NCBI GenBank assembly: GCA_016188355.1
Contig: JACPHY010000003.1
Coordinates: 8,170-72,169, forward strand
Reading direction: 5' to 3'
DNA length: 64,000 nt
Source of the DNA: Candidatus Uhrbacteria bacterium
Lineage (GTDB): Bacteria > Patescibacteriota > Patescibacteriia > JACPHY01
This document shows positions 2,300 through 50,539 of this stretch, one piece after another. How positions within the stretch are numbered: position 1 is the stretch's first letter; each line of letters opens with the position of its first letter. The position numbers and the translations under genes were made by a program. A model generated the notes under the pieces. It searched no databases. It saw nothing but the letters and a program-made list of their open reading frames with translations, and was not told the origin of the DNA.

Positions 2300-4321
2300 A
2301 TGATCTCCATACTCACCTTTGCGCTCCTCACCGCGCTCGCAGCGATTGCGTACGGCGGCATCCTCACCGCCCAAATCCTGAAGCTCCCCGCGGGTGAAGG
2401 GAAGATGGTTGGCATCGCACATGCGATCCAGGAAGGTGCGCGCGCATTCCTGAAGCGTCAGTACATCTCCGTCGCATGGATCGGCGCGCTCCTCTTCCTC
2501 GTCATTGGACTGCTCCCGAGCCTCGGATGGAACGTCGCGATCGGATTCCTCGTGGGCGCCGTGCTCTCCGCAGCTGCCGGCATCATCGGCATGATGGTCG
2601 CGGTTCGCGCAAACGTGCGCACGGCAGAAGCCGCAAAGTTGGGGCTCCCCCAGGCACTCGACGTTGCCGTGAAAGGCGGCGCCGTGACCGGCATGCTCGT
2701 CGTCGGTCTCGCGCTCCTCGGTGTTGTTGCCGTGTTCTGGATGGGCGGCGCGAATGGTGACGCGCTCCACATGCTCGTCGGTCTCGGCTTCGGCGGTTCA
2801 CTCATCTCGGTCTTCGCCCGACTAGGTGGCGGCATCTACACGAAGGCCGCAGACGTCGGCGCCGATCTCGTCGGCAAAGTAGAGGCGGGCATTCCAGAAG
2901 ATGATCCTCGCAACCCGGCAGTCATCGCAGATAACGTGGGAGATAATGTGGGCGACGATGCGGGCATGGCTGCGGATCTCTTTGAAACGTACGCAGTCAC
3001 CACAGTCGCGACCATGCTCCTCGGCGCACTCATCGGCGGCGCGGACTCCGCGGCCGTACTCTACCCGCTCCTCATCGGTGGCATTGGCATCATCGCTTCC
3101 ATTCTCGGTACCTTTGCGATTCGTCTCGGCAAGGGTTCCACGCAAATCATGGCCGCGCTCTATAAAGGACTTGCCACATCCGGTGTGCTTGCCGCGATTG
3201 GCATCGTCGTCATTCCCGGACTCTTCACCATCGGCAATGCGTCCTTCAACGTGCGTTCCGCGGCACTCTTCGGCCCTGCACTCATCGGTCTCGCCGTGAC
3301 CGCGCTCCTCGTGCTCATCACGGAGTACTACACCTCGACCGGATTCGCCCCGGTCCGCTCTATCGCGCAAGCATCGGAAACGGGTCATGGCACGAACGTG
3401 ATTCAAGGACTCGCGGTGGGCCTCCGCTCGACCGCGCTCCCCGTGCTCGTCATCGCCGCCGCCATCGGCTGCTCGTATGCGCTCGGCGGTCTCTATGGCA
3501 TTGGCATTGCGGCTATGGCCATGCTCTCGCTCGCGGGCATCATCGTGACGATCGATGCATACGGTCCCATCACTGACAACGCCGGCGGCATTGCGGAAAT
3601 GGCCGGACTTCCGGACTCCGTGCGCGCGATCACCGATCCGCTCGACGCAGTCGGCAACACGACCAAAGCGGTCACCAAGGGCTACGCGATTGGCTCCGCG
3701 GGACTCGCCGCGCTCGTGCTCTTCGCGGATTACACGCACGCCCTCGCAAGTCGCGGCCTCTCGGTGGAGTTCCGCCTCGATGATCCGAAGGTGCTCATCG
3801 GACTCCTCATTGGTGGCGTCCTCCCGCATCTCTTTGGCGCGCGCGCCATGGAAGCGGTACGCAAGGCGGCGAGCAGCGTGGTGGAAGAAGTGCGCCGACA
3901 GTTCAAGGAAATCCCCGGCATCATGGAGGGGACCAGCAAGCCCGACTACGGTCGCTGCGTCGATATTGTGACGAAGGCTGCCATCCGGGAGATGATCATC
4001 CCTGCGCTCCTCCCTGTGGTCGCACCGATCCTGGTCGGCCTATTCCTCGGCGCACAGGCGCTCGGCGGTCTCCTCGTCGGCGTGCTCATCTCAGGACTCT
4101 TCATGGCGATCGCCATGACGACCGGCGGAGCGGCATGGGACAACGCGAAAAAGTACATCGAAGCGGGCAATCATGGCGGGAAAAAGTCACCCGCACATCA
4201 GGCGGCTGTCACCGGCGACACGGTCGGCGATCCATACAAGGACACCGCCGGACCCGCGATCAATCCGATGATCAAAATCGTGAACATCGTAGCGCTGCTC
4301 ATTGTGGGACTGCTCGCGTGA
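2300..4321 (+). CDS. hppA: K(+)-insensitive/H(+)-translocating membrane pyrophosphatase
   Basis: 673 aa, many TM helices. Contains the diagnostic '[22 protein letters not shown]' and '[17 protein letters not shown]' motifs of V-type H+-PPases. Confidence 0.95.
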
Positions 4322-5895
4322 GCCTCGCGCCGCGGTACGCAATACCCTTGCCCATGTGGGCAGGGGTATTGACATACATGCCTCGCCTGCGGTTCCATGG
4401 TTGCGCGGCGCCGCAGGGCTGTGCAGTACATCGCATCGTGATGCCGTGCTCCGCAGGGCAGCACGGAGCGCCGGGCCGAGTACCCAATCTCGGTACATTC
4501 GTCCTTTCCTTCTTCCCCCATCACCTGCGCACTGCCCGGCAACGCATCGCAATGCCTCGTGCCGCACGGCGCAGCTTCGACTCGCGCATGCCAACCGCGA
4601 GCAATGGGACACATGCGTCTCTCGTCCTCCACCTCCCACCGCGCAGCGCACCGCAGCGCACCGCGTAGCCCAGCAAGACTCGTCCCGGCAGCAAATCGAG
4701 TCCAATCTCGATGCATCCGCCTGCCACCGATCACCGCCGCGCAGCAGTGCATCGCGTCGCGGCGTACTGCTATGCGCCTCAGAGCGTCGCTCCGGATGGG
4801 GACCATCCCCATCCCCCCTCCCCCTGCACTCATATCCATTGATAGCGGCGCCGTAGTGCTACGCACCGCAGCGCATCGTGATGCAGCGCACCGCACCCGG
4901 CCGGGTACCCAACCCCGGCCGTTTCATTTTCTCGCCATACCACTTGACGACACTCCACCATCCCGGTATCGTCGCTGCGATGTCGAATCCTTCCCAATCC
5001 ACTCGCCCACTGCCCATGTGCTCCCTCCTCCTGGTGGACGACGATATCCTCACGATGGAATCCTACTGCTGAGCAACGTGCAGTTCTGCTAGGCATCGCC
5101 CAGCAATGTAGCGCGTTGCCCGGTCCGGAGTTCGGTCGAATCCGAACCCTCCAGATCCTCCACGCGCCATCGCCCTGCCCTGCGCAGCCGGGTATCGCGC
5201 TGCTACGCAGCGCGCCGCGAAGCGCGGTAGCGTTGTGAATCGGGCCACATCCCGATTACGTATTCCTGCGCACCACGATCTCATCGTCGCCAGGCTACGC
5301 AGTGCTCTGCTGCGCTCGGCAATGCTTCGGGTGGGACTCCATTCTCATCACGTCTGTATACATGGTGGCCGTTGCATGCCCAGCTTCGCCCAGCTACGCA
5401 ATGCACCGCGCAGCACTGCGCTGCCCTGTCGAGCAACGCATCGCGGCGGGTGAGGCCCCATCCTCACCAACCACTACTTCCACCCGCATCGCCACTCTCG
5501 CACTGTTCCTTGTTTCTTGTTCTCTTGCGCCGCGTCATGCGGCAATGCAACGCACAGTTCTGCTTCGCGGTGTTTTGTCGCGGGTGGGGCCCCATCCTCA
5601 TCACTGATCCCGTATATACCCATTGCTCACTCAGTGTCGCAGTGCTGCGCCCAGCAACGCAGCGCACGGTTGCGCTACGCACCGCTCCGGACCAGGTCCA
5701 TCCCTGGTCCGTTTTCTTTGCCATGACACACGGAAATACTGCGTGCGCCCATCACTTGACAGCACCTCGCGATTTGTTAAGGTGCCGATCGTCTCTGCGC
5801 CGCATGAGCGACCGCAAGAGGCGACCGCGCCTTCACAATCACAACAAAAACCTCTCAACCGAGTAGAGGGAAGAAGGCGCAAGGAGTGAGTATTC
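4322..5895. repeat. 1.57-kb non-coding repeat tract: degenerate ~12-mer arrays (GCARYGCANCGC-like) interspersed with hairpins carrying a conserved CCCAWYC loop and GTTTTC tail
   Basis: No credible ORF here; the track ORFs are Arg/Ala-rich antisense-type artefacts. Runs such as 'gcgcagcgcaccgcagcgcaccgcgtagc' and 'gtcgcagtgctgcgcccagcaacgcagcgcacggttgcgctacgcaccgctcc' show 12-nt periodicity. Hairpins sit at about 4898-4933 (CGGCCGGG/CCCGGCCG + TTTCATTTTCTC), 5449-5468 (GGTGAGG-ccccat-CCTCACC), 5583-5612 (degenerate) and 5689-5720 (GGACCAGG-tccatc-CCTGGTCC + GTTTTCTTTG). Confidence 0.7.
5756..5783 (+). promoter_or_regulatory. candidate sigma70-type promoter upstream of paralog A (TTGACA-16nt-TAAGGT)
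   Basis: 'cacTTGACAgcacctcgcgatttgtTAAGGTgcc' about 110 nt upstream of the ATG at 5896. Spacing is acceptable; the -10 is weak. Confidence 0.3.
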
Positions 5896-6792
5896 ATGGC
5901 ACGAAGGAAGAATACCGGCACATCCGGATCCCCAGACCCCGATGCCCCAGCGAGCACAGTGCAGGTGGGGAGCAGAAAGAAGACCCGGCCGCGTCAGACG
6001 GATGGCGCGAACGACAACAGTGGTCATGCGGCGGTGACCGCGGAGAGCGAGTTCGACGAGGAAGCGTTCCGGAAGGTCGTTGCCTTCCAGGTGACCTGCG
6101 TCGGCATCTCGCCCATCCTCATGGCGGCCGCGGATGAACGGAAGACGCTCGAGATTGATGGTGGCATCTCCGAGGATGACAAGGCGGAGAAAGGATCAAG
6201 CGTCGAGGCAATTCGCGAGCATGCACGAAAGTACGTCATGCCGCGGAAACTCTATCGCGATGCCGCGGGCCGCGTCGGTATCCCGGCAGAGAACTTCCTC
6301 GAGGCCCTCATGCAGGCCGGCGTGAAGATCAAGCACGACAAGAAACAGCTCACCACCGGCAAGCACTCATACGTGCCATCACTCCTCGACATCGTCGAGG
6401 ACTTCCTCCTCTTCCCGGAGTCCTGCCAGGATCAGCCGGACGGCACCCCGGGATGGGTCGAGGACTATGATCACGGCTGGGGCAAAACCGGTACGTTCGT
6501 CGCGATCAAGCGTCCGAAGTTCGAAGTCGGCAGCTGGGGATTCCGTGCGACGCTCATGTTCAACCCCTCCGAGATCCCCCCGAAGGTGGTCCGACAGCTC
6601 GTCGCGATCGCCGGACGATTCGTCGGACTCGGCGGACATCGCCCCGGCAAGCGCGGCCGATTCGGCAAGTTCGTGATCGGCGACTGGCAGCAGCTCGCCG
6701 TAGCACCGGCACTCAACGATCGCATCGACGTACAGAAGTTCGTGAAGGACGCGCGATGGCCCGAACCGATGCCCGCAGCCGCGTCGACCTGA
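5896..6792 (+). CDS. hypothetical protein, paralog A of a tandem pair (disordered basic N-terminus)
   Basis: 298-aa ORF. Clearly paralogous to the next ORF: 'FQVTCVGISPILMAAADERKTLEIDGG' vs 'FCTITCTGTSPLLLNQTTEEQTLRIDGG'; 'YVPSLLDIVEDF' vs 'LVPALLEIVEQE'; 'WGFRATLMFNPSEIPPKVVRQLVAIAGRFVGLGG' vs 'WGFTVTLACHPTLTPGPFLEELLTIAGARIGVGS'. No family recognised. Confidence 0.6.
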   Translation: MARRKNTGTSGSPDPDAPASTVQVGSRKKTRPRQTDGANDNSGHAAVTAESEFDEEAFRKVVAFQVTCVGISPILMAAADERKTLEIDGGISEDDKAEKGSSVEAIREHARKYVMPRKLYRDAAGRVGIPAENFLEALMQAGVKIKHDKKQLTTGKHSYVPSLLDIVEDFLLFPESCQDQPDGTPGWVEDYDHGWGKTGTFVAIKRPKFEVGSWGFRATLMFNPSEIPPKVVRQLVAIAGRFVGLGGHRPGKRGRFGKFVIGDWQQLAVAPALNDRIDVQKFVKDARWPEPMPAAAST

Positions 6793-7637
6793 GTCCGCAA
6801 ACGCGCAAGGACACTTGGACGCTCCGTCCGGAAATCCTTGCGGCGGCACGACGCGCACAGGAGGAAATCCTCCCCGCGTTTTGCACCATTACATGCACGG
6901 GCACCTCGCCGCTGCTCCTCAATCAGACCACGGAGGAGCAGACGCTCCGCATCGATGGCGGCATGCGCGGCCCGCGGTTTCCGAAACCGCCGAATGCCAT
7001 CGCGCACGTGGCCAATCTTGCGCGGCGACGACAACGCGGTGATCCATCAGCGCAGGAGGAGCGTGCCGCACCGGAGGAGTGGGCTGCCTTCCATGCGTGG
7101 GAACGCCAATGCTACCGCGATCTCGTGGCAGCGCCAGGAATTCCGCGCATGGCAGACGGCTCCCCGTTCATTCCGGCACGCTACCTGGAGGAATGCCTCG
7201 TGCGTGCGGGACGGTATCTGGAGCATCCGCGGCTCGGCATACTCACGGACCCGGAGCCGAACGGCGGCAGCCTCGTTCCCGCACTCCTGGAGATCGTGGA
7301 ACAGGAACTGCCACTCCCGAACGATCAATGGGAACTCGATCTCCGACCGGGATGGAAGCATGGCGAAACAAATCCGGATCTCCGGAAATCGATCGCCCGC
7401 GCCAAGTACCGCGTCTGGGGATTCACGGTGACCCTGGCCTGCCATCCGACCCTCACGCCCGGTCCGTTCCTCGAGGAGCTGCTCACCATTGCGGGCGCGC
7501 GGATTGGTGTCGGTAGTTTCCGCCGTGACCCACGGAAGGGACATACGGAGCTCCGCGCGGTGTTCGGTCGATTCCGACCGACGCAGTGCGTCATGCAGAC
7601 AATCAACGCGCTGCCGCCCGAGGAGGCGGAGGCGTAA
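6756..7637 (+). CDS. hypothetical protein, paralog B of the tandem pair
   Basis: 293-aa ORF. Its start overlaps the end of paralog A by 37 nt in another frame, with no alternative in-frame start before the conserved block. Same conserved blocks as paralog A. Confidence 0.55.
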   Translation: MARTDARSRVDLSPQTRKDTWTLRPEILAAARRAQEEILPAFCTITCTGTSPLLLNQTTEEQTLRIDGGMRGPRFPKPPNAIAHVANLARRRQRGDPSAQEERAAPEEWAAFHAWERQCYRDLVAAPGIPRMADGSPFIPARYLEECLVRAGRYLEHPRLGILTDPEPNGGSLVPALLEIVEQELPLPNDQWELDLRPGWKHGETNPDLRKSIARAKYRVWGFTVTLACHPTLTPGPFLEELLTIAGARIGVGSFRRDPRKGHTELRAVFGRFRPTQCVMQTINALPPEEAEA

Positions 7638-8048
7638 CGAGTATCGATTCCTACGACGCGCGCAACGCACTGCAGTGCAACGTTGGGCAACGCACATCTC
7701 CGGGCGGGGCCCCATCCCCGCCCGTTTTCACTCACCACGCGTTCTCTTCGACTGCGGCAGCGCATCGCGCCGCGCCGCAGCGTGCGGTAATGCCGCGTTC
7801 CGAACGGAGCCCAATCTCCGTTCTCGCTTTTGCCCGCCCTCCGCACACTTACGCCCATATGTCGCCTGCGCCGCTGCGCATTGCAATGCAGCGTGTGGCA
7901 AAGCTACGCATTGGATCGGGAACCCTATCCCGATCCTTTTCTTTTGCGCATGCGATCGCACGCGCCACATTGACGAAGTCATGCGATTCTGCCAATATCT
8001 CCCTGTTCGATACGATCGTTCCCAATTACCGAAGGAGGAGCATGAGCC
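7638..8048. repeat. intergenic repeat tract (12-mer-like motifs plus three conserved-loop hairpins); contains a candidate promoter for the helicase
   Basis: Hairpins at 7701-7728, 7802-7834 (GAACGGAG-cccaat-CTCCGTTC + TCGCTTTTG) and 7913-7946 (GGATCGGGA-acccta-TCCCGATCC + TTTTCTTTTG). Motifs 'gcaacgcactgcagtgcaacg' and 'cattgcaatgcagcg'. Promoter-like 'TTGACGaagtcatgcgattctgcCAATAT' at about 7970-7998. Confidence 0.55.
7700..7730 (+). terminator. intrinsic-terminator-like hairpin after paralog B (CGGGCGGGG-ccccat-CCCCGCCCG + TTTTC)
   Basis: Perfect 9-bp GC stem with conserved loop 'ccccatc', followed by 'gttttcac'. Located about 65 nt after the stop at 7637. Confidence 0.5.
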
Positions 8049-9926
8049 ATGCGCGTCACGCTCACCGACTGTCTTGCCCAGTTTCCGCATCGCGCCATTC
8101 GCCCGGAGCAACAGGAACTCCTCGCCGCAATCACCGCAACTCCGGAGAGCATCACCATTGAGGGACCGACGGGCCTCGGAAAAACGGATGTGGCGATGTC
8201 CGTGCTCCGCGCGCGAGCGGCGACAGTGGCACAGGAACTTCGCGATCGCCAAGCGACCAATCCCGCCGCACGACCGCACCCGCGATGGTACTGCACGCCG
8301 ACGAAGAACGAGGTGGAACAAATCCAGCATCGATTCCCAGAGGTGCGCGTCATCTATGGGCGCAATGAGTATCCCTGCGCGTACTACCATGCGCGCGGCA
8401 TGCCGCTTGCCGCGGACGCCGTGCCATGCGCGACGCTCCGGAAGCAGCACTGCTGCCCGCATGCCATCGTGCCAGAGACCGGTCTCCCGGAAGATCCGCA
8501 CGCCGAGCCCTGTGCGTACCTCGCGGCGAAACATGCAGCGAAATCCGGAGGCATCGTCGTGACGACCACCGCATTTTTCCTCACGAGCTCGCTGCTCGCG
8601 CGCGATTGGGAAACGCCGGATACGGTCGTCATGGACGAAGCGGACCAACTCGCGGACATCGCGAGCCAACTCTTTGCGACGCACATTACCGATTCCGCGC
8701 TGCTCCAAATCTTGGCGCTCCTAGAACGCATCAACGACGCGCATCACGCGGATCTCTTCCGCACGTTCCTCGACATACTCCAACGGCACACGAGTCGTAC
8801 CCCTGGGGAATCGAAAATCCTCGAACCCACGCAGACCATCGCCCTGATCCAGCTCCTCGAACGTGCGCATTATCCGCATCTCCATGAACGCATCCAAACC
8901 GCGATGCGATCCGGGGTCTTGGATCCCGTGCAACAGCAATCGGAGCTCCGCATCCTCGAGGACCTCACGCGGAACATTCTCCGTTACCTTCGCCATCTCC
9001 GCTTCGCCGTAGGCGACGCCGATCGCGGGCCGCGCAATCTTGCCTTCGCGTATGCGGTACGAGAACGCGCGGACGGCACCATGGTCTGCCGCCTCGTCAT
9101 TGAGCCGTACCTGGTGAATGGACTCATCCGCGCGGCGGTTGGCGACCATGTCCTCGCCATGTCCGCCACCATTGGCGATGGGACGTACTTCGGATACGAA
9201 ACCGGACTCACCGCGCCGGTGTACCGAGTCGCGCGGTCCCCGTTTCCGATCCATCACCGACGCATCTATCTCCCCATCGATACACCCGACCTCGCCCATC
9301 GGGCACAGGAACGCAACACGCTGCGCGACGCGGTCATCCGCATTCTCGACTGCTGCGCGAAGTTCCGCGCGCGTGGCCATCGCGCACTGATCGTCACCAT
9401 GTCCAATGCGGAGCGCGATCACTTCGTGCGCCGCGCACCCGATGCGGGCCTCACTCTCATCTCGTATGGGAACGGCGTGACCGCACGTAATGCGCTCGAA
9501 CGATTTGTGCAGGGGGAAGGCGATGTGCTCGTCGGCACGTCCGCACAGTTCGCCACCGGCATTGATCTCCCGAAACAGATCGCGCCCATCATTGTGGCGC
9601 TCCGACCGAAGTATAGTAATCCGCACGATCCGCGCGCACAGTTCGAGGAATTGCAGCGCCTCTCCAAGGGCAAACGATTCGCCCGAGAACGATATCGCGC
9701 CACCAAGAATGCACTGCAGGTCTCCGGTCGCAATTGGCGCACCCCGGAGAGCGTAGGCATCACCATCTTCTACTCACGCCAATTCCGCGATCTCTTTCCG
9801 CAGGGATTACCGAGGTGGCTCGAACCCGCGTACGTCTCGACGCGTACACTCGACCAAATCGTCGAGGAGGCATGTGTCCTCCTCGACGCCGCACCCGACC
9901 TCCCGATCGCCGCCAGCAGCACCTGA
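8049..9926 (+). CDS. Rad3/XPD/DinG-like SF2 DNA helicase with Fe-S cluster domain
   Basis: 625 aa. Walker A 'IEGPTGLGKTD', motif II 'VVMDEADQL'. Cys-rich insertion between motifs I and II ('YPCAYYHARG...VPCATLRKQHCCPHAIV...EPCAYL') is typical of 4Fe-4S Rad3-family helicases. C-terminal 'VLVGTSAQFATGIDLP' matches motif V. RBS AAGGAGG upstream. Confidence 0.8.
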   Translation: MRVTLTDCLAQFPHRAIRPEQQELLAAITATPESITIEGPTGLGKTDVAMSVLRARAATVAQELRDRQATNPAARPHPRWYCTPTKNEVEQIQHRFPEVRVIYGRNEYPCAYYHARGMPLAADAVPCATLRKQHCCPHAIVPETGLPEDPHAEPCAYLAAKHAAKSGGIVVTTTAFFLTSSLLARDWETPDTVVMDEADQLADIASQLFATHITDSALLQILALLERINDAHHADLFRTFLDILQRHTSRTPGESKILEPTQTIALIQLLERAHYPHLHERIQTAMRSGVLDPVQQQSELRILEDLTRNILRYLRHLRFAVGDADRGPRNLAFAYAVRERADGTMVCRLVIEPYLVNGLIRAAVGDHVLAMSATIGDGTYFGYETGLTAPVYRVARSPFPIHHRRIYLPIDTPDLAHRAQERNTLRDAVIRILDCCAKFRARGHRALIVTMSNAERDHFVRRAPDAGLTLISYGNGVTARNALERFVQGEGDVLVGTSAQFATGIDLPKQIAPIIVALRPKYSNPHDPRAQFEELQRLSKGKRFARERYRATKNALQVSGRNWRTPESVGITIFYSRQFRDLFPQGLPRWLEPAYVSTRTLDQIVEEACVLLDAAPDLPIAASST

Positions 9927-10329
9927 CCCACCTCTCCGACTCCGCAGCGCAGTGCCTCGCCATGCAACGTTCCGCGCCGCGACGCTGCGCTCCGCAATGC
10001 AACGGACTGGGATTCACCCTAGTCTCGTCGCCCCGTTCCGAAAACTGCCATCCTCCATGCCATGCGGCGCTCGGTACCGCGTGGCAATGCAGTGCGCCGC
10101 TCCGCAATGATTCGGGACCATCCCGTTGCTTCATCGCTCATGACGGATCGCCCGCGCGGTGCTACGCAGCGCGGTGCAATGCCCCGTGGCGCGTCGCGGT
10201 GCAATGCGCAGCTCATTATTGCAGCGGACCGGGTTACCCCCGGTCCTTTTCTTTTTCTCCAATCGCCACCCATGCTTGACGTCCACGGGATACCGTGGTG
10301 CACTAGGAACGCTGATTATCGAATCTTGT
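9927..10329. repeat. intergenic repeat tract of the same family (GCAATGCAACG-type 12-mers plus hairpins)
   Basis: 'gcagcgcagtgcctcgccatgcaacgttccgcgccgcgacgctgcgctccgcaatgcaacgg', 'gtggcaatgcagtgcgccgctccgcaatg' and 'ggtgctacgcagcgcggtgcaatgccccgtggcgcgtcgcggtgcaatgcgcagc'. Terminal hairpin 10225-10259: GGACCGGG-ttacc-CCCGGTCC + TTTTCTTTTTCTCC. Confidence 0.6.
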
Positions 10330-11634
10330 ATGCAAGTCACGACCACCACACTCCCCAAATCTTCGGTTGCACTCCAAATCGAGCTCACCGCAGAGGAACT
10401 CCAGCCATACCTCACGAAAGCTGCGGAGGCGCTCTCCCGCGAACATCAGGTGAAGGGATTTCGCCCTGGCAAATTGCCATACGCACTTGCGGTGCAGCGC
10501 TTCGGTGCAGAGGCGCTCCGCCACGAAGCCGCGGATCATGCAATCCGCGATGCGTACGTGCGCGCCGTACGCCAAGAAAAGCTGAAGACGGTCGGGCAGC
10601 CGCGCATCGAACTGGCGGAGCCCACTCCAAACGCATCGATTGCCTTTACGGCAACGGTAGCCATATTGCCCACCATGGAGCTTCCGGACTTCGCGTCCAT
10701 TGTCGTCGATCGCCGCGCCGTCCACATAGATGCGCAGGACGTCGACCGCGCACTGGAGGATCTCCGCAAGATACAACCCATTGAGGCGCTCGTGGATCGC
10801 GCAGCAACCGCTACGGATAAGGTGATCGTCGACATCGATCTCAAGAAAGATGCGGTCCCACTCGAAGGCGGGCAGGCCCGCGGACATCAGATCTATCTCA
10901 CGGAATCCTACTATCTCCCCCGAGTAAAGGAAGAGGTCGTGGGCATGACGAAGGGCGAAACGAAAACGTTCCCCCTCGCATTCCCGGCCGATCATTTTCA
11001 AAAACACCTCGCCGGACAAACCGTGGATTGCGCGGTGACCCTCCGCGACGTCTATGCGGTCGAGCTCCCCCCGCTCGATGATGCCCTCGCGCAGCGACTC
11101 GGCCAGCCAACCATCGCCGATCTCCGTACGCGCATCGAGCACAACCTCCGGGAAGAAGCGACCCATAAAGCAAACGATGCGGAAGAGATTGCCATGCTCG
11201 ATGCCATTGTGGCGAAGGCGAAGATTGGCGATCTCCCGGAAATCCTCATTACGGGCGAAGCGCATCGCATGGTGGATGAACTCGCCTCGAGCATCGCCGA
11301 ACGCGGACTCGAATTTGCGACATACCTCGCGAAGATCCAAAAAACGCGCGACCAACTGCTCATTGATTTTGTGCCCGAAGCCATCCGTCGCGTGAAGGTG
11401 GCACTCGTCACCCGCGCCGTTGCGGAACAGACGACCCTCACCGTTGCCGATGCGGAGGTAGAAGCAGCAATTCAGCAGCAGCTCGAACGGTACGCCGAAA
11501 CCCCCGAGTTCCATCAACGCCTGCAGTCCGAAGAAGCACGCGACTACGTTCGCATGACGCTCCGCAATCGCAAGGTCATCGCCCACCTCCGCGGACTCGT
11601 CCAGTGGAAAGACGCGAAACCTGCCGCAGCGTAA
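10330..11634 (+). CDS. tig: trigger factor (ribosome-associated chaperone/PPIase)
   Basis: 'HQVKGFRPGKLP' trigger-factor signature and the N-terminal ribosome-binding 'ELTAEELQPYL' region. Start set at ATG 10330 ('MQVTTTTLPKSS'). The upstream in-frame extension of the track ORF lies in the repeat tract. Confidence 0.9.
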   Translation: MQVTTTTLPKSSVALQIELTAEELQPYLTKAAEALSREHQVKGFRPGKLPYALAVQRFGAEALRHEAADHAIRDAYVRAVRQEKLKTVGQPRIELAEPTPNASIAFTATVAILPTMELPDFASIVVDRRAVHIDAQDVDRALEDLRKIQPIEALVDRAATATDKVIVDIDLKKDAVPLEGGQARGHQIYLTESYYLPRVKEEVVGMTKGETKTFPLAFPADHFQKHLAGQTVDCAVTLRDVYAVELPPLDDALAQRLGQPTIADLRTRIEHNLREEATHKANDAEEIAMLDAIVAKAKIGDLPEILITGEAHRMVDELASSIAERGLEFATYLAKIQKTRDQLLIDFVPEAIRRVKVALVTRAVAEQTTLTVADAEVEAAIQQQLERYAETPEFHQRLQSEEARDYVRMTLRNRKVIAHLRGLVQWKDAKPAAA

Positions 11635-11811
11635 ACCGCATTCCCCATTCCGCAGCCACATCCGCATCCCACACCACGGGGTGCGGATTTGGCTGCACGA
11701 CGGCCGCGTCCCGAGCACCAATCCAGCCTTGACGCCCCGATCGACGTTTGGTACTGTTGCCCCGCACCTGATGTGCGGGTTCCTTCCCTGTAGTCCATAA
11801 GGAGATTTCGC

Positions 11812-13098
11812 ATGCACCCATCGCGGATCATCCAGCGCACTGCGCTGCTGATCGTCCTGGCCATGATGCTCCCCGTCTCTGCGCTCGCTGCTCCGTGGCA
11901 TGTCGTGATCACCCGCATGACGGAGGAACGCTCCCTCTGGCTCCTCCCCTGCGCGTTCGTGGCGGGCATGGTGAGCGTGGCCACGCCGTGTGTCCTCCCC
12001 ATGCTCCCCATCACGCTCGGCACGCTCGGCGTACGATCGGACACCACGCGACGCATCACCCTGCTCCGCACGCTCGCGTACATCGGCGGCATCCTCGTCA
12101 CGTTCATGGGACTCGGCATGCTCGCGGGCATTGCCGGTAACGCCGTGAGTACCATCTTCACGTATACCTCCGTGCACCTCGTCCTGGCTGCCGTCTTCCT
12201 GATCTTGGCACTGAGTACGTTTGGCGTGTACACGCTCCAGCTGCCGTCCGCGCTCCAGACGCGATGGAGCCGTATCGGCGGCGCGAGCATCTTCGGCGCA
12301 TTTGCCGCCGGAACCGTCGGCGGCCTCCTCGCACTCCCCTGCACCGGTCCGGTCCTCGCCGGCATCCTCGGCGTGATCGGTTCTGCGGGATCCGCGATGT
12401 ACGGCGCGCTCATCCTCGGCTGCTACGCGCTCGGATTCGGCATGCCGTTCCTCGCGCTCGGCATCGGACTCATCCGTATGCCCAAGACGCGCACATGGAC
12501 GCAGCGCACGGAGTACGGCATCGGCGCGCTGCTGCTCATCGGTGCATTCTGGATGCTCCGAAATGCGTTTCCGGATATCGCGACGCCGTTCGCGCACCCG
12601 GCAGCCTTCCTCCCTGCGCTTGGTCTCATTGCCATCGGCAGTGCCACGCTCATCTGGACCGCATCGCTCTCGACATTCGCCGTCGTGCGTGGCGTGGGGG
12701 GCATCACGCTCGGGGGCGTCCTCGTCATGAGTGGACTTGCGGCTCCCACCAACACCGATTGGTGCGAGGAGGGCCGTGATGGTGCGTGCCTTGCGACCGC
12801 GTGCGCCGCCCATCCCATCACCGTGGTGGACGCGCATGCGCCATGGTGCACCTCCTGCCGCACCCTCGAACGCGAGACGCTCGCCGCCCCATCGGTCCAA
12901 CAGGCGATCGGCATCTACGGCCGCGTGCGCATCGATGTGGACGCGCATCCGCAGCACTTCGATCGATTCGCGCCACGCGGATTGCCGGCGATCACCTTCC
13001 TCGATCGCACCTGCACGCCAGTCCACGGCGTCACCGGTCTCATTCCCCCAGCGCAGCTCCTCGATCACCTTCGCCGAGCGGAAATACTCGTGCAATGA
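11812..13098 (+). CDS. thiol:disulfide interchange protein, DsbD/CcdA transmembrane domain fused to C-terminal thioredoxin-like domain
   Basis: 428 aa. Signal peptide, multiple TM helices with paired cysteines ('VATPCVLPMLP', 'ALPCTGPVLAG'), and a C-terminal 'WCTSC' CxxC thioredoxin motif. RBS AAGGAG. Confidence 0.8.
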   Translation: MHPSRIIQRTALLIVLAMMLPVSALAAPWHVVITRMTEERSLWLLPCAFVAGMVSVATPCVLPMLPITLGTLGVRSDTTRRITLLRTLAYIGGILVTFMGLGMLAGIAGNAVSTIFTYTSVHLVLAAVFLILALSTFGVYTLQLPSALQTRWSRIGGASIFGAFAAGTVGGLLALPCTGPVLAGILGVIGSAGSAMYGALILGCYALGFGMPFLALGIGLIRMPKTRTWTQRTEYGIGALLLIGAFWMLRNAFPDIATPFAHPAAFLPALGLIAIGSATLIWTASLSTFAVVRGVGGITLGGVLVMSGLAAPTNTDWCEEGRDGACLATACAAHPITVVDAHAPWCTSCRTLERETLAAPSVQQAIGIYGRVRIDVDAHPQHFDRFAPRGLPAITFLDRTCTPVHGVTGLIPPAQLLDHLRRAEILVQ

Positions 13099-13110
13099 TG
13101 GGAGCATGGT

Positions 13111-13434
13111 ATGCGCATCTACGCGATTCTCCTCACCCCTGACGCCATGACGGGTTTCCGCCAATTCGCGGAAACCGATGGCCACGAACTCGTGCCGTTG
13201 GACGATTGCACCGCATTGCCCTCCGAACTGGCCACAACGGATTGCATCGCCATTCCGATTAGTCTCTTCGTGCCCCTCACCCGCGCGCTCCGATCGCGCC
13301 AGGTACCGACGGAGCTCAATGTCATGGCCGTACTCCCCATGGGCACGGTCGCTAGCAACCGCACGACGGCCGCAGACGGCCTGAGCGTGGTCTACATATC
13401 CGAAGATGATCTTATCCGCCTCCCCTCGCCATAA
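13111..13434 (+). CDS. hypothetical protein (107 aa)
   Basis: Starts 13 nt after the dsbD-like stop, with GGGAG 8 nt upstream. No recognisable motif. Confidence 0.3.
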   Translation: MRIYAILLTPDAMTGFRQFAETDGHELVPLDDCTALPSELATTDCIAIPISLFVPLTRALRSRQVPTELNVMAVLPMGTVASNRTTAADGLSVVYISEDDLIRLPSP

Positions 13435-13455
13435 CGTGGGGAGGTTTTCGTTGTT

Positions 13456-14352
13456 ATGTCCCATTCCCCAGAACGCACGCAGGAATCCGCAGCGGAGGCA
13501 TCACCATCGCGCGCGAAAGAAACCATCTTTACTGCGGAGCGCGCGGAACACGATGTCTCCTGGGATGAATCGCCGGAAGCGGTGTTCCGCGATGCGCTCG
13601 CGCTCCTGGCGCCCGAACTCACCCCCGCGCAAACCGATGCGCTGACGCAGGAGCTCTCGCACGAATCTCCGACGCTCGATGCGATCCGCGCGATTGTCCA
13701 CGACGCTGCGCTCGCGCGTCGGATCGGAAAATGCAGCGATCAGTACCTGGGACGGCCGGTGCTGGTACATGGCATCTGGGAACAGCTGCGGTATGGGGCC
13801 ACCACATCCGGCATGACGGACACCGGACTCGGCCTCCGGCGCGCGCTCGCATGGCAGAGCGCGAACACCCACCGCACCGATCTCCGGGTGACGTATCCCG
13901 CATCCGGAGCGGATGCGACCGGATTCCTCGATCACCTCACGGGTGCACCGATTGCCCACCTCGACTGCGTCACCGCTGGCGGTCCTCAAGGCGCCGATCG
14001 CAAAGCAGCATCCCAAGACATTGATACGACGCTCGTCAAAAGCACGATCCAGCAAGCACTCGAGCAGCAACGCATCGCTCCCGCGGATTGCGTGGTCCTC
14101 GACAGCTCCGGATTCGGCGTGCTCATGGATCTCGCCGATCCCACGGTGCTCGCGGGGGCGCTCGATCGTCTCGTGGTGCCGGGTGGTATCCTCGTCACCA
14201 CTTCGGGGTATCTGGGTGCGGGAAGGGAATCCGTTAAACACGTACTCACGCAACTTCCGCCGGAACGCTACCGATACGTGGGACACCAGGGCGGTAACGT
14301 CTTCATCGTGGAACGCACGCGCACTACATCGGATGCGACCACATCCACCTGA
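13456..14352 (+). CDS. hypothetical protein (298 aa)
   Basis: RBS 'GGGGAGG' upstream, non-repetitive composition, fits between neighbours. Family not recognised. Confidence 0.5.
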   Translation: MSHSPERTQESAAEASPSRAKETIFTAERAEHDVSWDESPEAVFRDALALLAPELTPAQTDALTQELSHESPTLDAIRAIVHDAALARRIGKCSDQYLGRPVLVHGIWEQLRYGATTSGMTDTGLGLRRALAWQSANTHRTDLRVTYPASGADATGFLDHLTGAPIAHLDCVTAGGPQGADRKAASQDIDTTLVKSTIQQALEQQRIAPADCVVLDSSGFGVLMDLADPTVLAGALDRLVVPGGILVTTSGYLGAGRESVKHVLTQLPPERYRYVGHQGGNVFIVERTRTTSDATTST

Positions 14353-37895: not shown

Positions 37896-38837
37896 ATGCT
37901 CGGCAATCCTCGCACGCTCCTCGCGAAGGCACTCCGTGGTCGATATGCGATCGGCGCGTTCAACGTCAACAATCTCGAGATCCTCCAAGGCGTGATCCGC
38001 GCTGCCGAAGCGCAACGCGCGCCGGTAATCGTGCAAACGAGTGAGGGTGCGATCGAGTACGCGGGCATGACGGAACTACTCGCCATGATGCACACTGCGG
38101 CGAAGCGAGCGTCGGTTCCCGTGGTGATCCATCTCGATCACGGAAAAAATCTCGATGTGGTACGGGCGGCGATTCGGTCCGGATATACGAGCGTCATGTT
38201 CGATGGGTCGTCGCTCCCGTACGCGGAGAATGTCGCGCGCACAAGGCAGGTGGTCCGCTGGGCACACGCGAATGGCGTCGCAGTGGAGGCAGAACTGGGC
38301 GCGATCAAGGGCGTGGAGGATTTCGTCTCCGTCGCCGAGCGCGATGCGGCGTTCACGAATCCCGAACAGGCCCTCGACTTCGTGACGCGCACGCAGTGCG
38401 ATTCGCTTGCGGTGTCCATTGGGACCGCGCATGGCGCGCATAAGGCGACCGGCGACATCACGCTCGACGTCGCCCGCCTGCGCCGCATCCATGCGCTCCT
38501 CCCGAAGACGCCGCTCGTCCTCCATGGGGCATCATCCGTTCCGGACGATCTCGTCGGCGCCACGCACCTCTACTGCACGATGCTCGGCGACTGTCATCGC
38601 CTCGAAGGGGCGAAGGGCATCCCCGACGCACAGACGCGGCTCGCCATCCGACACGGCGTCACGAAAATTAACACCGATACCGATCTCCGCATCGCGTTCA
38701 CCGCAGCGGTCCGCGAGACGCTCATCGAGGACACCACCGTATTTGATCCCCGCAAACTCCTCGGTCCCGCACGCGATGCCGTGCAGACGATCGCAGAGCG
38801 ACGCATTGCGGTGTTCAGGAGCAAATGGAAAACATAA
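37896..38837 (+). CDS. fba: fructose-bisphosphate aldolase, class II
   Basis: 'YAIGAFNVNNLE', 'PVIVQTSEGA', 'VVIHLDHG', 'VEAELGAIKG' and 'LAVSIGTAHG' are class II FBA motifs. Confidence 0.9.
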   Translation: MLGNPRTLLAKALRGRYAIGAFNVNNLEILQGVIRAAEAQRAPVIVQTSEGAIEYAGMTELLAMMHTAAKRASVPVVIHLDHGKNLDVVRAAIRSGYTSVMFDGSSLPYAENVARTRQVVRWAHANGVAVEAELGAIKGVEDFVSVAERDAAFTNPEQALDFVTRTQCDSLAVSIGTAHGAHKATGDITLDVARLRRIHALLPKTPLVLHGASSVPDDLVGATHLYCTMLGDCHRLEGAKGIPDAQTRLAIRHGVTKINTDTDLRIAFTAAVRETLIEDTTVFDPRKLLGPARDAVQTIAERRIAVFRSKWKT

Positions 38838-50457: not shown

Positions 50458-50539
50458 GATGACCTGCCCTTCCTCTGCGCCGCCGACTAGCCCGGGTTCC
50501 GACACCTGTCGGATGACCGAACCTGCCTATTTTGGTTGA

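What the first reader, a model, noticed from the sequence alone, without database searches (positions are those of the whole stretch)
4322..5895. 1.6-kb gene-free tract of degenerate 12-mer arrays and hairpins with conserved loop and compensatory stem changes
Between hppA and the paralog module there is no credible ORF. The DNA is made of runs of a ~12-nt unit (GCAGCGCACCGC, GCAATGCAACGC, GCTACGCAGTGC...) interspersed with hairpins whose stems differ (GGACCAGG/CCTGGTCC, GGTGAGG/CCTCACC, CGGCCGGG/CCCGGCCG, CGGGCGGGG/CCCCGCCCG). Their loops (cCCCATCc / tACCCAAc / tCCATC) and 3' tail (GTTTTC) are conserved. Such covariation implies selection on RNA or DNA structure. The same elements recur at 7638-8048 and 9927-10329, and the 12-mer motif (GCTACACGCAGCAATGCG) also appears just upstream of tRNA-Cys. 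This looks like a lineage-specific REP/MITE-like element or a family of structured terminators or sRNAs, and it is unusually dense here.
Basis: seen in the sequence. Interest (0 to 1): 0.65.

Follow-up and report, generated by a model that had tools for sequence, protein, structure and literature searches.

The report
VIPR guide-RNA arrays in Uhrbacteria
The "gene-free" tract is a battery of small guide-RNA genes built from 5-base repeats, and it belongs to a VIPR system, a CRISPR-like RNA-guided DNA-recognition machine first described in 2026, here sitting in the chromosome of a Candidatus Uhrbacteria bacterium.

Summary
The signal is real, but the repeat period is 5 nt, not 12. The window holds 17 arrays of 7-14 "GCNNY" pentamers. 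Eleven lie at 4403-5719, three at 7662-7946 and three at 10156-side tract 9944-10257. All are on the + strand. Each is followed by a hairpin with covarying stems and a CC(A/C)AY-type loop, and six hairpins carry T-runs.

The arrays flank two paralogous small RAMP proteins (5896-6792, 6756-7637) and a DinG-like helicase (8049-9926). A profile of the RAMP family hits the solved SUSP1 Vipr protein (E=7e-16). Two 2026 preprints describe VIPR systems as Vipr plus vrRNAs made of 9-16 pentanucleotide repeats (GGY/NN, with variants such as YNNNG), a structured 3' tail and helicase or nuclease accessories. This locus fits that description with a YGC/NN unit.

The same architecture recurs in five other fetched loci. 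Against the syntenic Uhrbacteria locus, the NN positions differ at 7%, unit position 5 at 44% and four-fold sites at 45-55%, so the guide sequences are under purifying selection.

No targets were found. The motif upstream of tRNA-Cys is not an array, and the REP/MITE reading is rejected.

Verdict: a new member of a very recently described kind. The two RAMP paralogs, the simple hairpin tail and the conserved guides may be variant features.

The parts
4340..4371 (+). 14-bp perfect hairpin directly after the hppA stop codon. Its 3' arm overlaps a TTGACA box at 4369-4374. It may be the hppA terminator, or an operator/promoter region for the first vrRNA transcription unit.
   Evidence: It is conserved in L002 6863-6894 with compensatory changes. 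TTGACA box.
4403..4494 (+). vrRNA 1: array 4403-4462 (12 GCNNY units), tail hairpin 4475-4494 (loop TACCCAAT).
   Evidence: Ortholog in L002.
4529..4601 (+). vrRNA 2: array 4529-4578 (10 units), atypical hairpin 4581-4601.
   Evidence: The tail is not hit by model R1.
4643..4712 (+). vrRNA 3: array 4643-4677 (7 units), tail hairpin 4695-4712 (loop TCCAAT).
4739..4814 (+). vrRNA 4: array 4739-4793 (11 units), tail hairpin 4794-4814.
4848..4931 (+). vrRNA 5: array 4848-4897 (10 units), tail hairpin 4898-4921, then a T-run. This is the terminator of the first vrRNA transcription unit.
   Evidence: 90% identical to L002 8620-8713.
4944..4972 (+). Promoter-like site (TTGACG, 17 nt, TATCGT) for the second vrRNA transcription unit.
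   Evidence: A positional equivalent lies in L002 at 8727.
5068..5147 (+). vrRNA 6: array 5068-5122 (11 units, several GT units), tail hairpin 5130-5147.
5172..5257 (+). vrRNA 7: array 5172-5226 (11 units), tail hairpin 5238-5257 (loop CCACAT).
5284..5349 (+). vrRNA 8: array 5284-5328 (9 units), tail hairpin 5330-5349 (loop CTCCAT).
   Evidence: The array is nearly identical to L002 9578-9617 while the tail stem differs.
5378..5468 (+). vrRNA 9: array 5378-5447 (14 units), tail hairpin 5449-5468 (loop CCCCAT).
   Evidence: Its ortholog sits in a different intergenic gap of L002 (12054-).
5527..5602 (+). vrRNA 10: degenerate array 5527-5581 (9-11 units), tail hairpin 5583-5602 (loop CCCCAT).
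5639..5719 (+). vrRNA 11: array 5639-5688 (10 units), tail hairpin 5688-5711, then a T-run. This is the terminator of the second vrRNA transcription unit.
5756..5784 (+). Promoter-like site (TTGACA, 16 nt, TAAGGT) upstream of the Vipr operon.
   Evidence: Conserved in L002 at 9857.
5896..6792 (+). vipA: 298-aa Vipr-family RAMP with a disordered N-terminal extension of about 55 aa.
   Evidence: Family of 1152 representatives. phrog_4652. Profile hit to PDB 36pp SUSP1 Vipr, E=7e-16. AF2 model pLDDT 84. Foldseek hits to Csm3/Cas7, E about 2e-8, and to viral RAMP-like proteins.
6756..7637 (+). vipB: 293-aa diverged paralog of vipA (30% identity). It has an insertion of about 35 aa and a longer G-loop.
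   Evidence: Orthologous A/B pairs occur in L002, L003, L006, L007 and L008.
7662..7731 (+). vrRNA 12: array 7662-7696 (7 units), tail hairpin 7701-7724, then TTTTC.
7757..7835 (+). vrRNA 13: array 7757-7801 (9 units, several GT units), tail hairpin 7802-7823 (loop CCCAAT), then TCGCTTTTG.
7868..7946 (+). vrRNA 14: array 7868-7912 (9 units), tail hairpin 7913-7936, then a T-run.
8049..9926 (+). DinG/XPD-family SF2 helicase, the predicted Vipr accessory protein (vap). It has Walker A GPTGLGKT, a DEAD box and a five-Cys cluster.
   Evidence: Pfam Helicase_C_2/DEAD. PADLOC typeIV_DinG E=9e-41. NCBIfam YoaA/DinG hits far below cut-off. Sequence. Orthologs at 38-65% identity lie next to Vipr genes in L002, L003, L008 and L009.
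9944..10025 (+). vrRNA 15: array 9944-10003 (12 units), tail hairpin 10004-10025.
10059..10125 (+). vrRNA 16: array 10059-10108 (10 units), short hairpin 10113-10125.
   Evidence: All 20 NN bases are identical to the L002 14749 array, although 10 scaffold positions changed.
10156..10257 (+). vrRNA 17: array 10156-10215 (12 units), tail hairpin 10226-10246, then a T-run (terminator before tig).
   Evidence: NN bases are 23/24 identical to the L002 14975 array.

Best explanation
The tract, together with the two smaller intergenic tracts, encodes 17 VIPR guide RNAs (vrRNAs) of a chromosomal VIPR (Viral Interference Programmable Repeat) system in a Candidatus Uhrbacteria bacterium.

Shown here:
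- Each RNA gene is a run of 7-14 pentanucleotide units, y-G-C-N-N, followed by a 3' hairpin 'tail'.
- The adjacent genes encode two paralogous Vipr-family RAMP proteins and a DinG-like helicase.

Inferred by homology to the SUSP1 system characterised in bioRxiv 10.64898/2026.04.26.720920 and .720927:
- The arrays are transcribed from the + strand. They appear as multi-vrRNA precursors bounded by TTGAC-type promoters and T-tailed hairpins, or as 3' extensions of the vipAB and dinG mRNAs, and are then cut into RNAs of about 70-100 nt.
- One Vipr protomer binds each pentamer, flips out and holds the constant triplet (here Y-G-C instead of G-G-Y), and presents the two variable bases.
- The string of NN dinucleotides reads double-stranded DNA in a gapped register (NNx repeated), forming an R-loop.
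- The helicase acts on the bound target, either unwinding or translocating along it, or extending silencing in the way CasDinG does in type IV-A CRISPR.

The targets are unknown. Because the guide dinucleotides are conserved between species, the targets are probably conserved too: either a resident or recurrent mobile element, or host genes.
For: 1. Arrays. There are 17 period-5 arrays, found only in the three intergenic gaps of this gene cluster and all on the + strand. Unit composition over 139 units is G 99%, C 92% (every miss at position 2 is T), N, N, then pyrimidine 79%.
2. RAMP proteins. VipA and VipB belong to one large family (1152 representatives), which is phrog_4652. A 96-sequence profile hits PDB 36pp 'SUSP1 Vipr protein' at E=7e-16 over its full length. 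The AF2 model (pLDDT 84) matches Cas7/Csm3 RAMPs at E about 2e-8 and viral RAMP-like proteins.
3. Published definition. VIPR is defined as Vipr plus vrRNAs of 9-16 YNNGG repeats with a conserved 3' tail, located in the long intergenic regions flanking vipr. Alternative units NNNGG, YNNNG and NNNNG are reported, and types III-V have nuclease or helicase accessories.
4. Recurrence. The same architecture (VipA, VipB, DinG-like helicase, GC-period-5 arrays in the flanks) occurs in L002, L003 and L008. VipA-VipB plus arrays occur on the shorter contig L006; L007 is too short to show arrays.
5. Selection has period 5, not 3. In six in-register orthologous arrays (64 units), differences by unit position 1 to 5 are 6, 11, 4, 5 and 28. 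That puts NN at 7% and position 5 at 44%, against four-fold-site divergence of 45-55% in the flanking genes.
6. The tail hairpin covaries and is specific to the locus.
7. Residues that contact G2 and Y3 in SUSP1 (R138, R179) align with conserved R206 and R249. The G1 contacts (H17, D177) align with A77 and G247, which fits the loss of the first G.
8. Terminator-then-promoter pairs sit at equivalent places in both Uhrbacteria genomes.
Against: - There are no expression data, so transcription, strand and processing are inferred from T-runs, promoter-like boxes and homology.
[quoted passage not shown] Exact-pattern scans gave 0 hits: five of viral contigs, two of metagenomes and one of genomes.
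- The constant triplet differs from the characterised GGY, and the pairing rule for this variant is untested.
- Relatives that keep the Asp-Phe G-loop (L011, and less clearly L009) also have GC- or GY-type units. The D177-to-Gly change therefore does not by itself explain the motif.
- The tail is a simple hairpin, not the SUSP1 pseudoknot.
- The locus is chromosomal and syntenic between housekeeping genes, whereas most VIPRs are viral or proviral.
- The role of the second paralog is unknown.
- The GCRNYGC unit is symmetric under reverse complement, so a function of the arrays as double-stranded DNA cannot be formally excluded.
Confidence: 0.85

Rival explanations
1. REP/MITE-like mobile or dispersed repeat family. 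On this view the units are selfish or structural repeats that accumulated in intergenic DNA.
For: There are many similar short units with hairpins in non-coding DNA. Array 5378 has its ortholog in a different intergenic gap of L002, so modules have moved or been duplicated within the locus.
Against: - All 17 units lie within 6 kb, in one orientation, around one gene cluster. The other 58 kb contain none with a tail.
- No terminal inverted repeats or target-site duplications bracket the units.
- Copies are orthologous and syntenic in a genome whose neutral sites differ by 45-55%.
- The constraint pattern has a 5-nt register with conserved NN.
- The same association with Vipr genes recurs in other fetched loci.
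Confidence: 0.03
2. A degenerate or atypical CRISPR array of a type IV-like CRISPR-Cas system, with the hairpins as repeats, the period-5 stretches as spacers, and RAMPs plus DinG as effector.
For: The helicase matches the PADLOC type IV-A DinG model at E=9e-41. The two neighbouring proteins have a RAMP fold. The 'variable part then hairpin' layout parallels spacer then repeat.
Against: - There is no constant direct repeat: stems differ between units.
- The 'spacers' carry an invariant G-C every 5 nt, and module spacing is irregular at 94-149 nt.
- No Cas1, Cas2, Cas6 or Cas8-like genes are present, and neither RAMP hits any Cas model in Pfam, PADLOC or NCBIfam.
- By sequence the RAMPs fall in the Vipr family.
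Confidence: 0.04
3. Arrays that act as double-stranded DNA. The GC steps every half helical turn would form a binding or nucleation platform (iteron-, operator- or loading-site-like) for the neighbouring proteins or the helicase, and the hairpins would simply be terminators.
For: The unit GCRNYGC equals its own reverse complement in form, so the arrays alone carry no strand information. No expression data exist.
Against: - Homologous proteins are shown experimentally to bind RNA made of such pentamers.
- The tails covary as RNA-type stems that include G-U pairs.
- T-runs and hairpins all lie on one strand, 3' of the arrays.
- The variable NN, not only the GC steps, is the most conserved part between orthologs. 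That fits an information-carrying guide better than a generic binding platform.
Confidence: 0.05
4. Independent sRNAs or structured terminators that are functionally unrelated to the flanking genes.
For: Six hairpins are good intrinsic terminators. There is a weak sub-threshold Rfam SorX hit at 10182-10251.
Against: - The co-occurrence with Vipr genes recurs in other fetched loci with different neighbours.
- 11 of 17 hairpins lack a T-run.
- No Rfam family reaches its threshold.
Confidence: 0.03

Closest known systems
VIPR systems (Vipr RAMP plus vrRNA). Type II is exemplified by Escherichia phage SUSP1 and a Pseudomonas fulva prophage (bioRxiv 10.64898/2026.04.26.720920 and .720927; PDB 36pp).
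   Same: - A small RAMP protein of the same sequence family.
- Guide RNA genes made of 7-14 tandem pentamers, each with a constant triplet and a variable dinucleotide.
- A structured 3' tail after each array.
- RNA genes in the intergenic DNA both upstream and downstream of the protein genes.
- An accessory gene predicted to act on DNA.
   Different: - The constant triplet is Y-G-C (written YNNyG in the paper's notation, closest to its 'YNNNG' variant) instead of G-G-Y.
- The tail is a simple hairpin with variable stem and conserved loop, not an invariant pseudoknot.
- There are two diverged Vipr paralogs instead of one.
- There are 17 vrRNAs against 4 in SUSP1.
- The accessory is a DinG-like helicase rather than a DNA-binding protein.
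- The locus is chromosomal, compositionally native and syntenic between two species of a Candidate Phyla Radiation (CPR) lineage, not viral.
- The guide dinucleotides are conserved between species.
VIPR types III-V, with helicase or nuclease accessory genes, some in prokaryotic chromosomes and defence islands (same preprint, Results section 9 and Methods).
   Same: A helicase accessory, a cellular location and a non-GGY repeat consensus are all mentioned for these types.
   Different: Which type this locus belongs to could not be determined, because the figures and data tables are not held. The text I could read does not mention tandem Vipr paralogs or DinG. This locus lies between housekeeping genes (hppA and tig), not in a recognisable defence island.
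Type IV-A CRISPR-Cas (Csf1, Csf2, Csf3, Csf5 plus CasDinG/Csf4).
   Same: RAMP proteins coat a guide RNA and are paired with a DinG-family helicase. There is no nuclease, which suggests interference or silencing by binding plus helicase action. The helicase is best matched by a PADLOC type IV-A DinG model.
   Different: - There is no CRISPR array, Cas6/Csf5 or large subunit.
- The RAMPs are Vipr-family. Their best structural matches are Csm3 and type VII Cas7, not Csf2.
- The helicase keeps a five-Cys cluster that looks like an intact Fe-S domain. From memory, not tested here, CasDinG has only a vestigial one.
- phmmer finds no CasDinG chain in the PDB.
TRAP-type RNA recognition (Bacillus trp RNA-binding attenuation protein), in which a protein oligomer reads triplets spaced every 5-6 nt.
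   Same: A multi-subunit protein reads a short constant motif repeated with a period of about 5 nt in single-stranded RNA.
   Different: The protein fold is unrelated. TRAP reads GAG/UAG for attenuation, and its spacers carry no information. This was only an early lead, dropped once the RAMP homology was found.

Membership tests
VIPR system | A Vipr protein: a small single-RRM RAMP with G-loop and thumb, homologous to characterised Vipr. | tested here: met
   The A2 profile hits PDB 36pp SUSP1 Vipr at E=7e-16 across residues 1-192 of 202. phrog_4652. The AF2 model (pLDDT 84) matches Csm3/Cas7 at E 2e-8. The G-loop GLGGHRPGKRGRFGKF aligns with GVGDWRP-RFGRF.
VIPR system | vrRNAs made of tandem pentanucleotide repeats (9-16 units) with a constant triplet alternating with a variable NN. 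| tested here: met
   17 arrays of 7-14 units. Positions 1, 2 and 5 are constrained and positions 3-4 vary among arrays.
VIPR system | The canonical GGY constant triplet (YNNGG unit). | tested here: not met
   The unit is y-G-C-N-N. The first G is replaced by a pyrimidine (79%). This falls under the 'related consensus'/YNNNG alternative named in the preprint's Methods, so it does not exclude membership of the wider family.
VIPR system | A conserved structured 3' tail after the repeat tract. | tested here: met
   A hairpin follows each array. It covaries, has a conserved loop, and model hits are confined to the locus. It differs in form, since no pseudoknot was detected.
VIPR system | vrRNA genes lie in the intergenic regions flanking vipr, together with an accessory (vap) gene acting on DNA. 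| tested here: met
   Arrays lie upstream of vipA, between vipB and dinG, and after dinG. The helicase is identified. The layout recurs in L002, L003 and L008, and in L009 with a single vipr.
VIPR system | vrRNAs are expressed as RNAs of about 100 nt and co-purify with Vipr. | not testable with these tools
   No transcriptome data are available. There are only T-runs on 6 tails and promoter-like boxes.
VIPR system | The NN string matches natural DNA targets under the 1-nt-skip rule. | tested here: inconclusive
   Matches in the window and fetched loci are at chance level. Eight collection scans gave 0 exact hits. The rest of the host genome and its virome were not searchable with mismatches.
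Type IV-A CRISPR-Cas | A CRISPR array of constant direct repeats with variable spacers. | tested here: not met
   No constant repeat exists. Hairpin stems differ, and the 'spacers' have a fixed GC every 5 nt.
Type IV-A CRISPR-Cas | Csf1, Csf2, Csf3 and Csf5 (Cas8-like, Cas7, Cas5, Cas6) genes. | tested here: not met
   The cluster has only three genes. The two RAMPs hit no Cas model in Pfam, PADLOC or NCBIfam.
Type IV-A CRISPR-Cas | CasDinG (Csf4) helicase. | tested here: inconclusive
   PADLOC typeIV_DinG PDLC01439 scores E=9e-41 over its full length, against YoaA at 4e-16. However, phmmer retrieves no solved CasDinG chain, and an Fe-S-like Cys cluster is present.
REP / MITE | Many copies dispersed through the genome, with terminal inverted repeats and/or target-site duplications. 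| tested here: not met
   17 of 18 arrays lie in one 6-kb cluster, and the tail model has no hit below E=0.25 elsewhere. No bracketing inverted repeats were found. Only 64 kb of the genome could be examined.
Intrinsic (Rho-independent) terminators | A GC-rich hairpin immediately followed by a U-run. | tested here: met
   Met for 6 of 17 tails (4898, 5688, 7701, 7802, 7913, 10226). The other 11 lack a T-run. Termination is therefore a secondary role of the last tail in each transcription unit.

The most novel reading that the evidence does not exclude
This may be a domesticated, vertically inherited VIPR in a Candidate Phyla Radiation (CPR) lineage. It keeps a fixed repertoire of about 17 guides under purifying selection across species, so it would serve as a stable RNA-guided regulator of host genes or of a long-term resident element rather than as an arms-race weapon.

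Its effector would be heteromeric: two diverged RAMP paralogs, one forming the filament and one perhaps capping the hairpin tail as Cas5 or Cas6 do, coupled to an Fe-S DinG helicase. That would make it a living intermediate between single-RAMP viral VIPRs and multi-RAMP, DinG-coupled class 1 (type IV-like) CRISPR effectors.
Probability: 0.25. Interest if true: 0.8.

Novelty: new member of a known kind. Interest (0 to 1): 0.55.

Why it matters
VIPR is a newly described mode of RNA-guided DNA recognition, using a gapped dinucleotide code, and has been proposed as the ancestor of CRISPR RAMP effectors. Only phage-type (type II) systems have been studied mechanistically.

This locus offers a well-resolved natural example of an uncharacterised branch:
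- It uses a different constant triplet (YGC).
- It has a simple hairpin tail.
- It has two RAMP paralogs.
- It has a DinG helicase.
- It has an unusually large set of 17 guides.
- It sits in the chromosome of an ultra-small Candidate Phyla Radiation (CPR) bacterium.

The two-genome comparison gives evolutionary evidence, independent of the published experiments, that the NN positions carry the selected information. It also shows that the position equivalent to the first G is only loosely constrained in this branch. If the duplicated RAMPs and DinG work together, the locus bears on how multi-subunit CRISPR effectors, type IV in particular, arose.

It also shows that long "gene-free" tracts next to small unannotated proteins in metagenome-assembled genomes can hide guide-RNA batteries that Rfam and gene callers miss.

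Tried and rejected
1. Rfam, at gathering threshold on the whole window and at E-value threshold on 4300-10400. Only tRNA-Cys and sub-threshold noise (SorX, mir-33) appeared. No hammerhead ribozymes lie between the vrRNAs.
2. First AF2 model from a 3-sequence alignment. It reached only pLDDT 42 and was unusable. It was replaced by a model from a 96-sequence alignment.
3. TRAP-like or other RNA-sponge idea for the 5-nt period. Dropped once the RAMP/Vipr homology appeared.
4. Self-targeting. vrRNA NN strings were searched under skip rules 0-3, and with alternative choices of variable positions, against the window and all fetched loci. Results were indistinguishable from shuffled guides.
5. External targets. 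Exact 1-nt-skip patterns of the best-conserved guides were scanned in viral contigs (5 scans), metagenome contigs (2) and genome contigs (1). All gave 0 hits. Exact matching and incomplete databases make this a weak negative.
6. Hypothesis that the Asp-to-Gly change at the SUSP1 D177 position explains the loss of the first G. Not supported, because relatives that keep Asp-Phe (L011, and less clearly L009) also have GC- or GY-type units.
7. The search for related loci in genome contigs with the VipA alignment. No relatives were found, so these genomes are apparently not in that collection.
8. tblastn of VipA against GenBank phages. No match, because the sequence is too divergent.
9. phmmer of the helicase against the PDB. 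Only CHL1 appeared, at 8e-4, so the relationship to CasDinG could not be settled.
10. Two of my eight hand-anchored orthologous array pairs (4738, 5174) were out of register. They were excluded from the per-position counts quoted.
Full report
**1. Observation check**

The tract between hppA (2300-4321, Pfam H_PPase E=1e-263) and the next real gene (5896) contains only mechanical ORFs. Automatic gene calls on the same DNA gave only Pfam-less ORFs.

Tandem Repeats Finder sees only short pieces with period 5 or 10. A direct scan for GC dinucleotides spaced 5 nt apart finds 11 arrays in 4403-5688, 3 in 7662-7912 and 3 in 9944-10215. It also finds one stray at 38773. The scan scores 97 positions at 6 or more of 8 units, against 0-3 in shuffles.

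A scan for any period-5 information, with no motif presupposed, returns the same 17 arrays. Outside these tracts it flags only AT-rich low-complexity stretches or stretches without a GC-type unit.

Over 139 units the composition by position is as follows:
- Position 1: G in 137.
- Position 2: C in 128 and T in 11.
- Positions 3-4: variable.
- Position 5: pyrimidine in 79%.

The arrays were selected on GC, so positions 1-2 are partly circular. That every miss at position 2 is a T is not circular.

Nearly every array is followed, within 0-25 nt, by a 6-9-bp hairpin. The motif upstream of tRNA-Cys is not an array. The stray at 38773 lies inside an ORF and has no hairpin.

**2. The neighbouring genes**

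ORFs 5896-6792 (298 aa) and 6756-7637 (293 aa) are paralogs (30% identity, E=7e-23). Neither has a Pfam, PADLOC or NCBIfam hit.

ORF 8049-9926 is an SF2 DinG/XPD-family helicase:
- Pfam Helicase_C_2 and DEAD.
- PADLOC typeIV_DinG at E=9e-41 over the full model.
- YoaA/DinG equivalogs far below their cut-offs.
- Walker A, a DEAD box and a five-Cys cluster in the sequence.

The long minus-strand ORF 10303-13464 is spurious, because trigger factor is encoded on the + strand there. The source organism is a Candidatus Uhrbacteria bacterium.

**3. What the paralogs are**

A profile search of 1.84 billion representatives found 1152 relatives, mostly about 200-250 aa. All those tested fall in phrog_4652, of unknown function.

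A 96-sequence profile hits one solved structure, 36pp "SUSP1 Vipr protein", at E=7e-16 over residues 1-192 of 202. With that alignment AlphaFold gives a confident model (pLDDT 84). Its best PDB matches are Cas7-type RAMPs, Csm3 and type VII Cas7 (E about 2e-8). Its best viral matches are uncharacterised or RAMP-annotated phage proteins of about 200 aa.

**4. Literature**

Two 2026 preprints define VIPR systems:
- A Vipr RAMP polymerises on a vrRNA made of 9-16 YNNGG pentamers (GGY/NN), followed by a conserved 3' tail.
- One protomer binds per repeat and flips out the GGY.
- The NN dinucleotides pair with DNA while skipping every third target base.
- vrRNA genes lie in the intergenic DNA around vipr.
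- Seven types exist. Some use NNNGG, YNNNG or NNNNG units, and types III-V carry nuclease or helicase accessories.
- About a quarter of the systems are in prokaryotic chromosomes.

The present unit maps onto G1-G2-Y3-N4-N5 as y-G-C-N-N. The second G and the pyrimidine are kept, and the first G becomes a loosely constrained pyrimidine. This is closest to the "YNNNG" variant.

Through the profile alignment, the SUSP1 residues map onto VipA as follows (residue roles):
- R138 (contacts G2) aligns with the conserved R206.
- R179 (contacts Y3) aligns with the conserved R249.
- H17 and D177 (contact G1) align with A77 and G247.

This is suggestive only. Relatives that keep Asp-Phe also have GC- or GY-type units (L011 clearly, L009 less so).

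**5. Comparative evidence**

A syntenic locus in a second Uhrbacteria genome (L002: hppA, then a 3.1-kb tract, vipA, vipB, a gap, dinG, a gap, tig) carries the same arrays and hairpins. Three further metagenomic loci with VipA/VipB orthologs have GC-period-5 arrays in their flanks: L003, L006 and L008. L003 and L008 also carry the helicase. L007 has the A/B pair but is too short to show arrays. L009 has a single Vipr, a 2.3-kb gene-poor tract and an orthologous helicase.

Many modules in the window have recognisable orthologs in L002. In six in-register array pairs (64 units), differences by unit position 1 to 5 are 6, 11, 4, 5 and 28. Two mis-anchored pairs were excluded. So NN differs at 7% and position 5 at 44%, mostly C/T changes.

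For comparison, four-fold degenerate sites of hppA, vipA, vipB and dinG differ at 45-55%. Array 10059 keeps all 20 NN bases while 10 scaffold bases changed. Array 10156 keeps 23 of 24.

The constraint therefore has a 5-nt register, which rules out coding sequence. The variable dinucleotides are the most strongly selected positions. That fits information-carrying guides with conserved targets.

One caveat applies. Orthologous arrays were recognised by similarity, so fast-evolving guides are under-sampled. Several arrays have no clear ortholog, which points to turnover as well.

**6. The tail**

I aligned 20 hairpins from the two genomes. Stems are 82% paired and 8 of 9 pairs show double changes. 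The covariation score is 0.62 against 0.29 in shuffles (0/500), and slid controls give 0.10-0.23.

A covariance model built on them finds 27 hits with E below 0.1. All are on the + strand and all lie inside the VIPR intergenic tracts of the window, L002 and L003. Nothing comparable appears elsewhere in the 64 kb. The enlarged alignment gives the same statistics.

The consensus is CGG-nnn-GGG-[nCCmAy]-CCC-n'n'n'. The seeds were chosen as hairpins and A6 was fitted to the model, so "paired" is partly by construction. The variety of stems around a conserved loop is not.

**7. Transcription units (inferred)**

T-tailed hairpins occur after vrRNAs 5, 11, 12, 13, 14 and 17. TTGAC[AG] occurs only five times on the + strand of 4300-10400. 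Four of these boxes sit 20-45 nt after a T-tailed hairpin (4944, 5756, 7970, 10276). The fifth overlaps the hairpin just downstream of hppA (4369). L002 has such boxes at the corresponding places, plus a few more.

This suggests the following units:
- Two multi-vrRNA units (vrRNAs 1-5 and 6-11).
- A vipAB unit that runs into vrRNA 12.
- A dinG unit that runs into vrRNAs 15-17.

It implies processing of precursors by an unknown nuclease. No ribozymes were found.

**8. Targets**

Under the published rule (NN, then one skipped base), and under alternative rules, the guides match the window and all fetched loci no better than shuffled guides do. Exact patterns for the five best or longest guides gave no hit in viral, metagenome or genome collections. 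Targets therefore remain unknown. Exact matching against incomplete databases is a weak test.

**9. Rivals**

- REP/MITE is rejected. The elements sit in one locus and one orientation, have no terminal repeats, are syntenic orthologs, and are linked to vipr genes in other fetched loci.
- A degenerate type IV CRISPR array is rejected. There is no constant repeat, no cas1, cas2, cas6 or cas8, and the RAMPs are Vipr-family.
- A function as double-stranded DNA is not formally excluded, because GCRNYGC is symmetric under reverse complement. It is disfavoured by the one-sided hairpins and T-runs, by G-U pairs in the stems, and by homology to an experimentally RNA-binding family.

**10. Verdict**

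This is a VIPR locus with 17 predicted vrRNAs (confidence about 0.85). It is a new member of a kind first described in 2026.

Several features may go beyond what the readable text of the preprints describes:
- Tandem diverged Vipr paralogs.
- A simple hairpin tail.
- A YGC triplet.
- A DinG helicase that looks like it keeps an Fe-S domain.
- A native-composition chromosomal setting (GC 61-64%, the same as the surroundings) between housekeeping genes.
- Conservation of guide dinucleotides between species.

I could not see the figures or data tables, so I cannot say whether this architecture or this genome is already catalogued.

Noticed in passing
window 4340-4371 (and L002 6863-6894): A perfect 14-bp hairpin lies 19 nt after the hppA stop codon. 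It is conserved between the two genomes with compensatory changes, has no T-run, and its 3' arm overlaps a TTGACA box. It could be the end of the hppA mRNA, or an operator/promoter for the first vrRNA unit.
   Followed up: partly
window 38773-38812: Eight GCNNN-like units (one miss) lie at the 3' end of ORF 37896-38837 with no tail hairpin. This is probably chance or coding periodicity. It is the only such stretch outside the VIPR locus.
   Followed up: partly
It is not a period-5 array.
   Followed up: yes
window 5896-6060 (VipA residues 1-55): VipA and its L002 ortholog carry a low-confidence, Lys/Arg/Gly-rich N-terminal extension of about 55 residues (pLDDT about 50). It is absent from the 200-aa phage Viprs. 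VipB has an insertion of about 35 residues in the helical region.
   Followed up: no
L002 7200-8300: The orthologous tract in L002 is twice as long (3.1 kb). Between its vrRNA clusters it has extra called ORFs, including a 99-aa DUF2103 protein (7933-8232). This is an insertion relative to the window.
   Followed up: no
window 5378-5447 versus L002 12054-12113: The ortholog of vrRNA 9 (upstream tract in the window) lies in the vipB-dinG gap of L002. Guide modules have therefore been moved or copied between the three intergenic arrays.
   Followed up: partly
window about 50000-52000: The cumulative GC skew reaches its minimum and changes sign near 51 kb, where GC also dips to 0.55. This may be a replication origin or a switch in gene strand.
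   Followed up: no
window 10182-10251: A sub-threshold Rfam SorX hit (24.5 bits against a gathering score of 46.6, E=0.013) overlaps the tail and terminator of vrRNA 17. I take it as spurious.
   Followed up: partly
window 4322-5895: The tract has strong C over G excess on the + strand (C 37%, G 25.5%). Pyrimidine-rich spacers of about 30-60 nt follow each tail hairpin. They could be 5' leaders or processing sites of the next vrRNA.
   Followed up: no
L009 5681-7956: A related locus has a single Vipr, a 2.3-kb gene-poor tract and an orthologous helicase, lying between aminoacyl-tRNA synthetase genes. Its units look like G-Y-N-N-N, with a weaker signal than in the window.
   Followed up: partly
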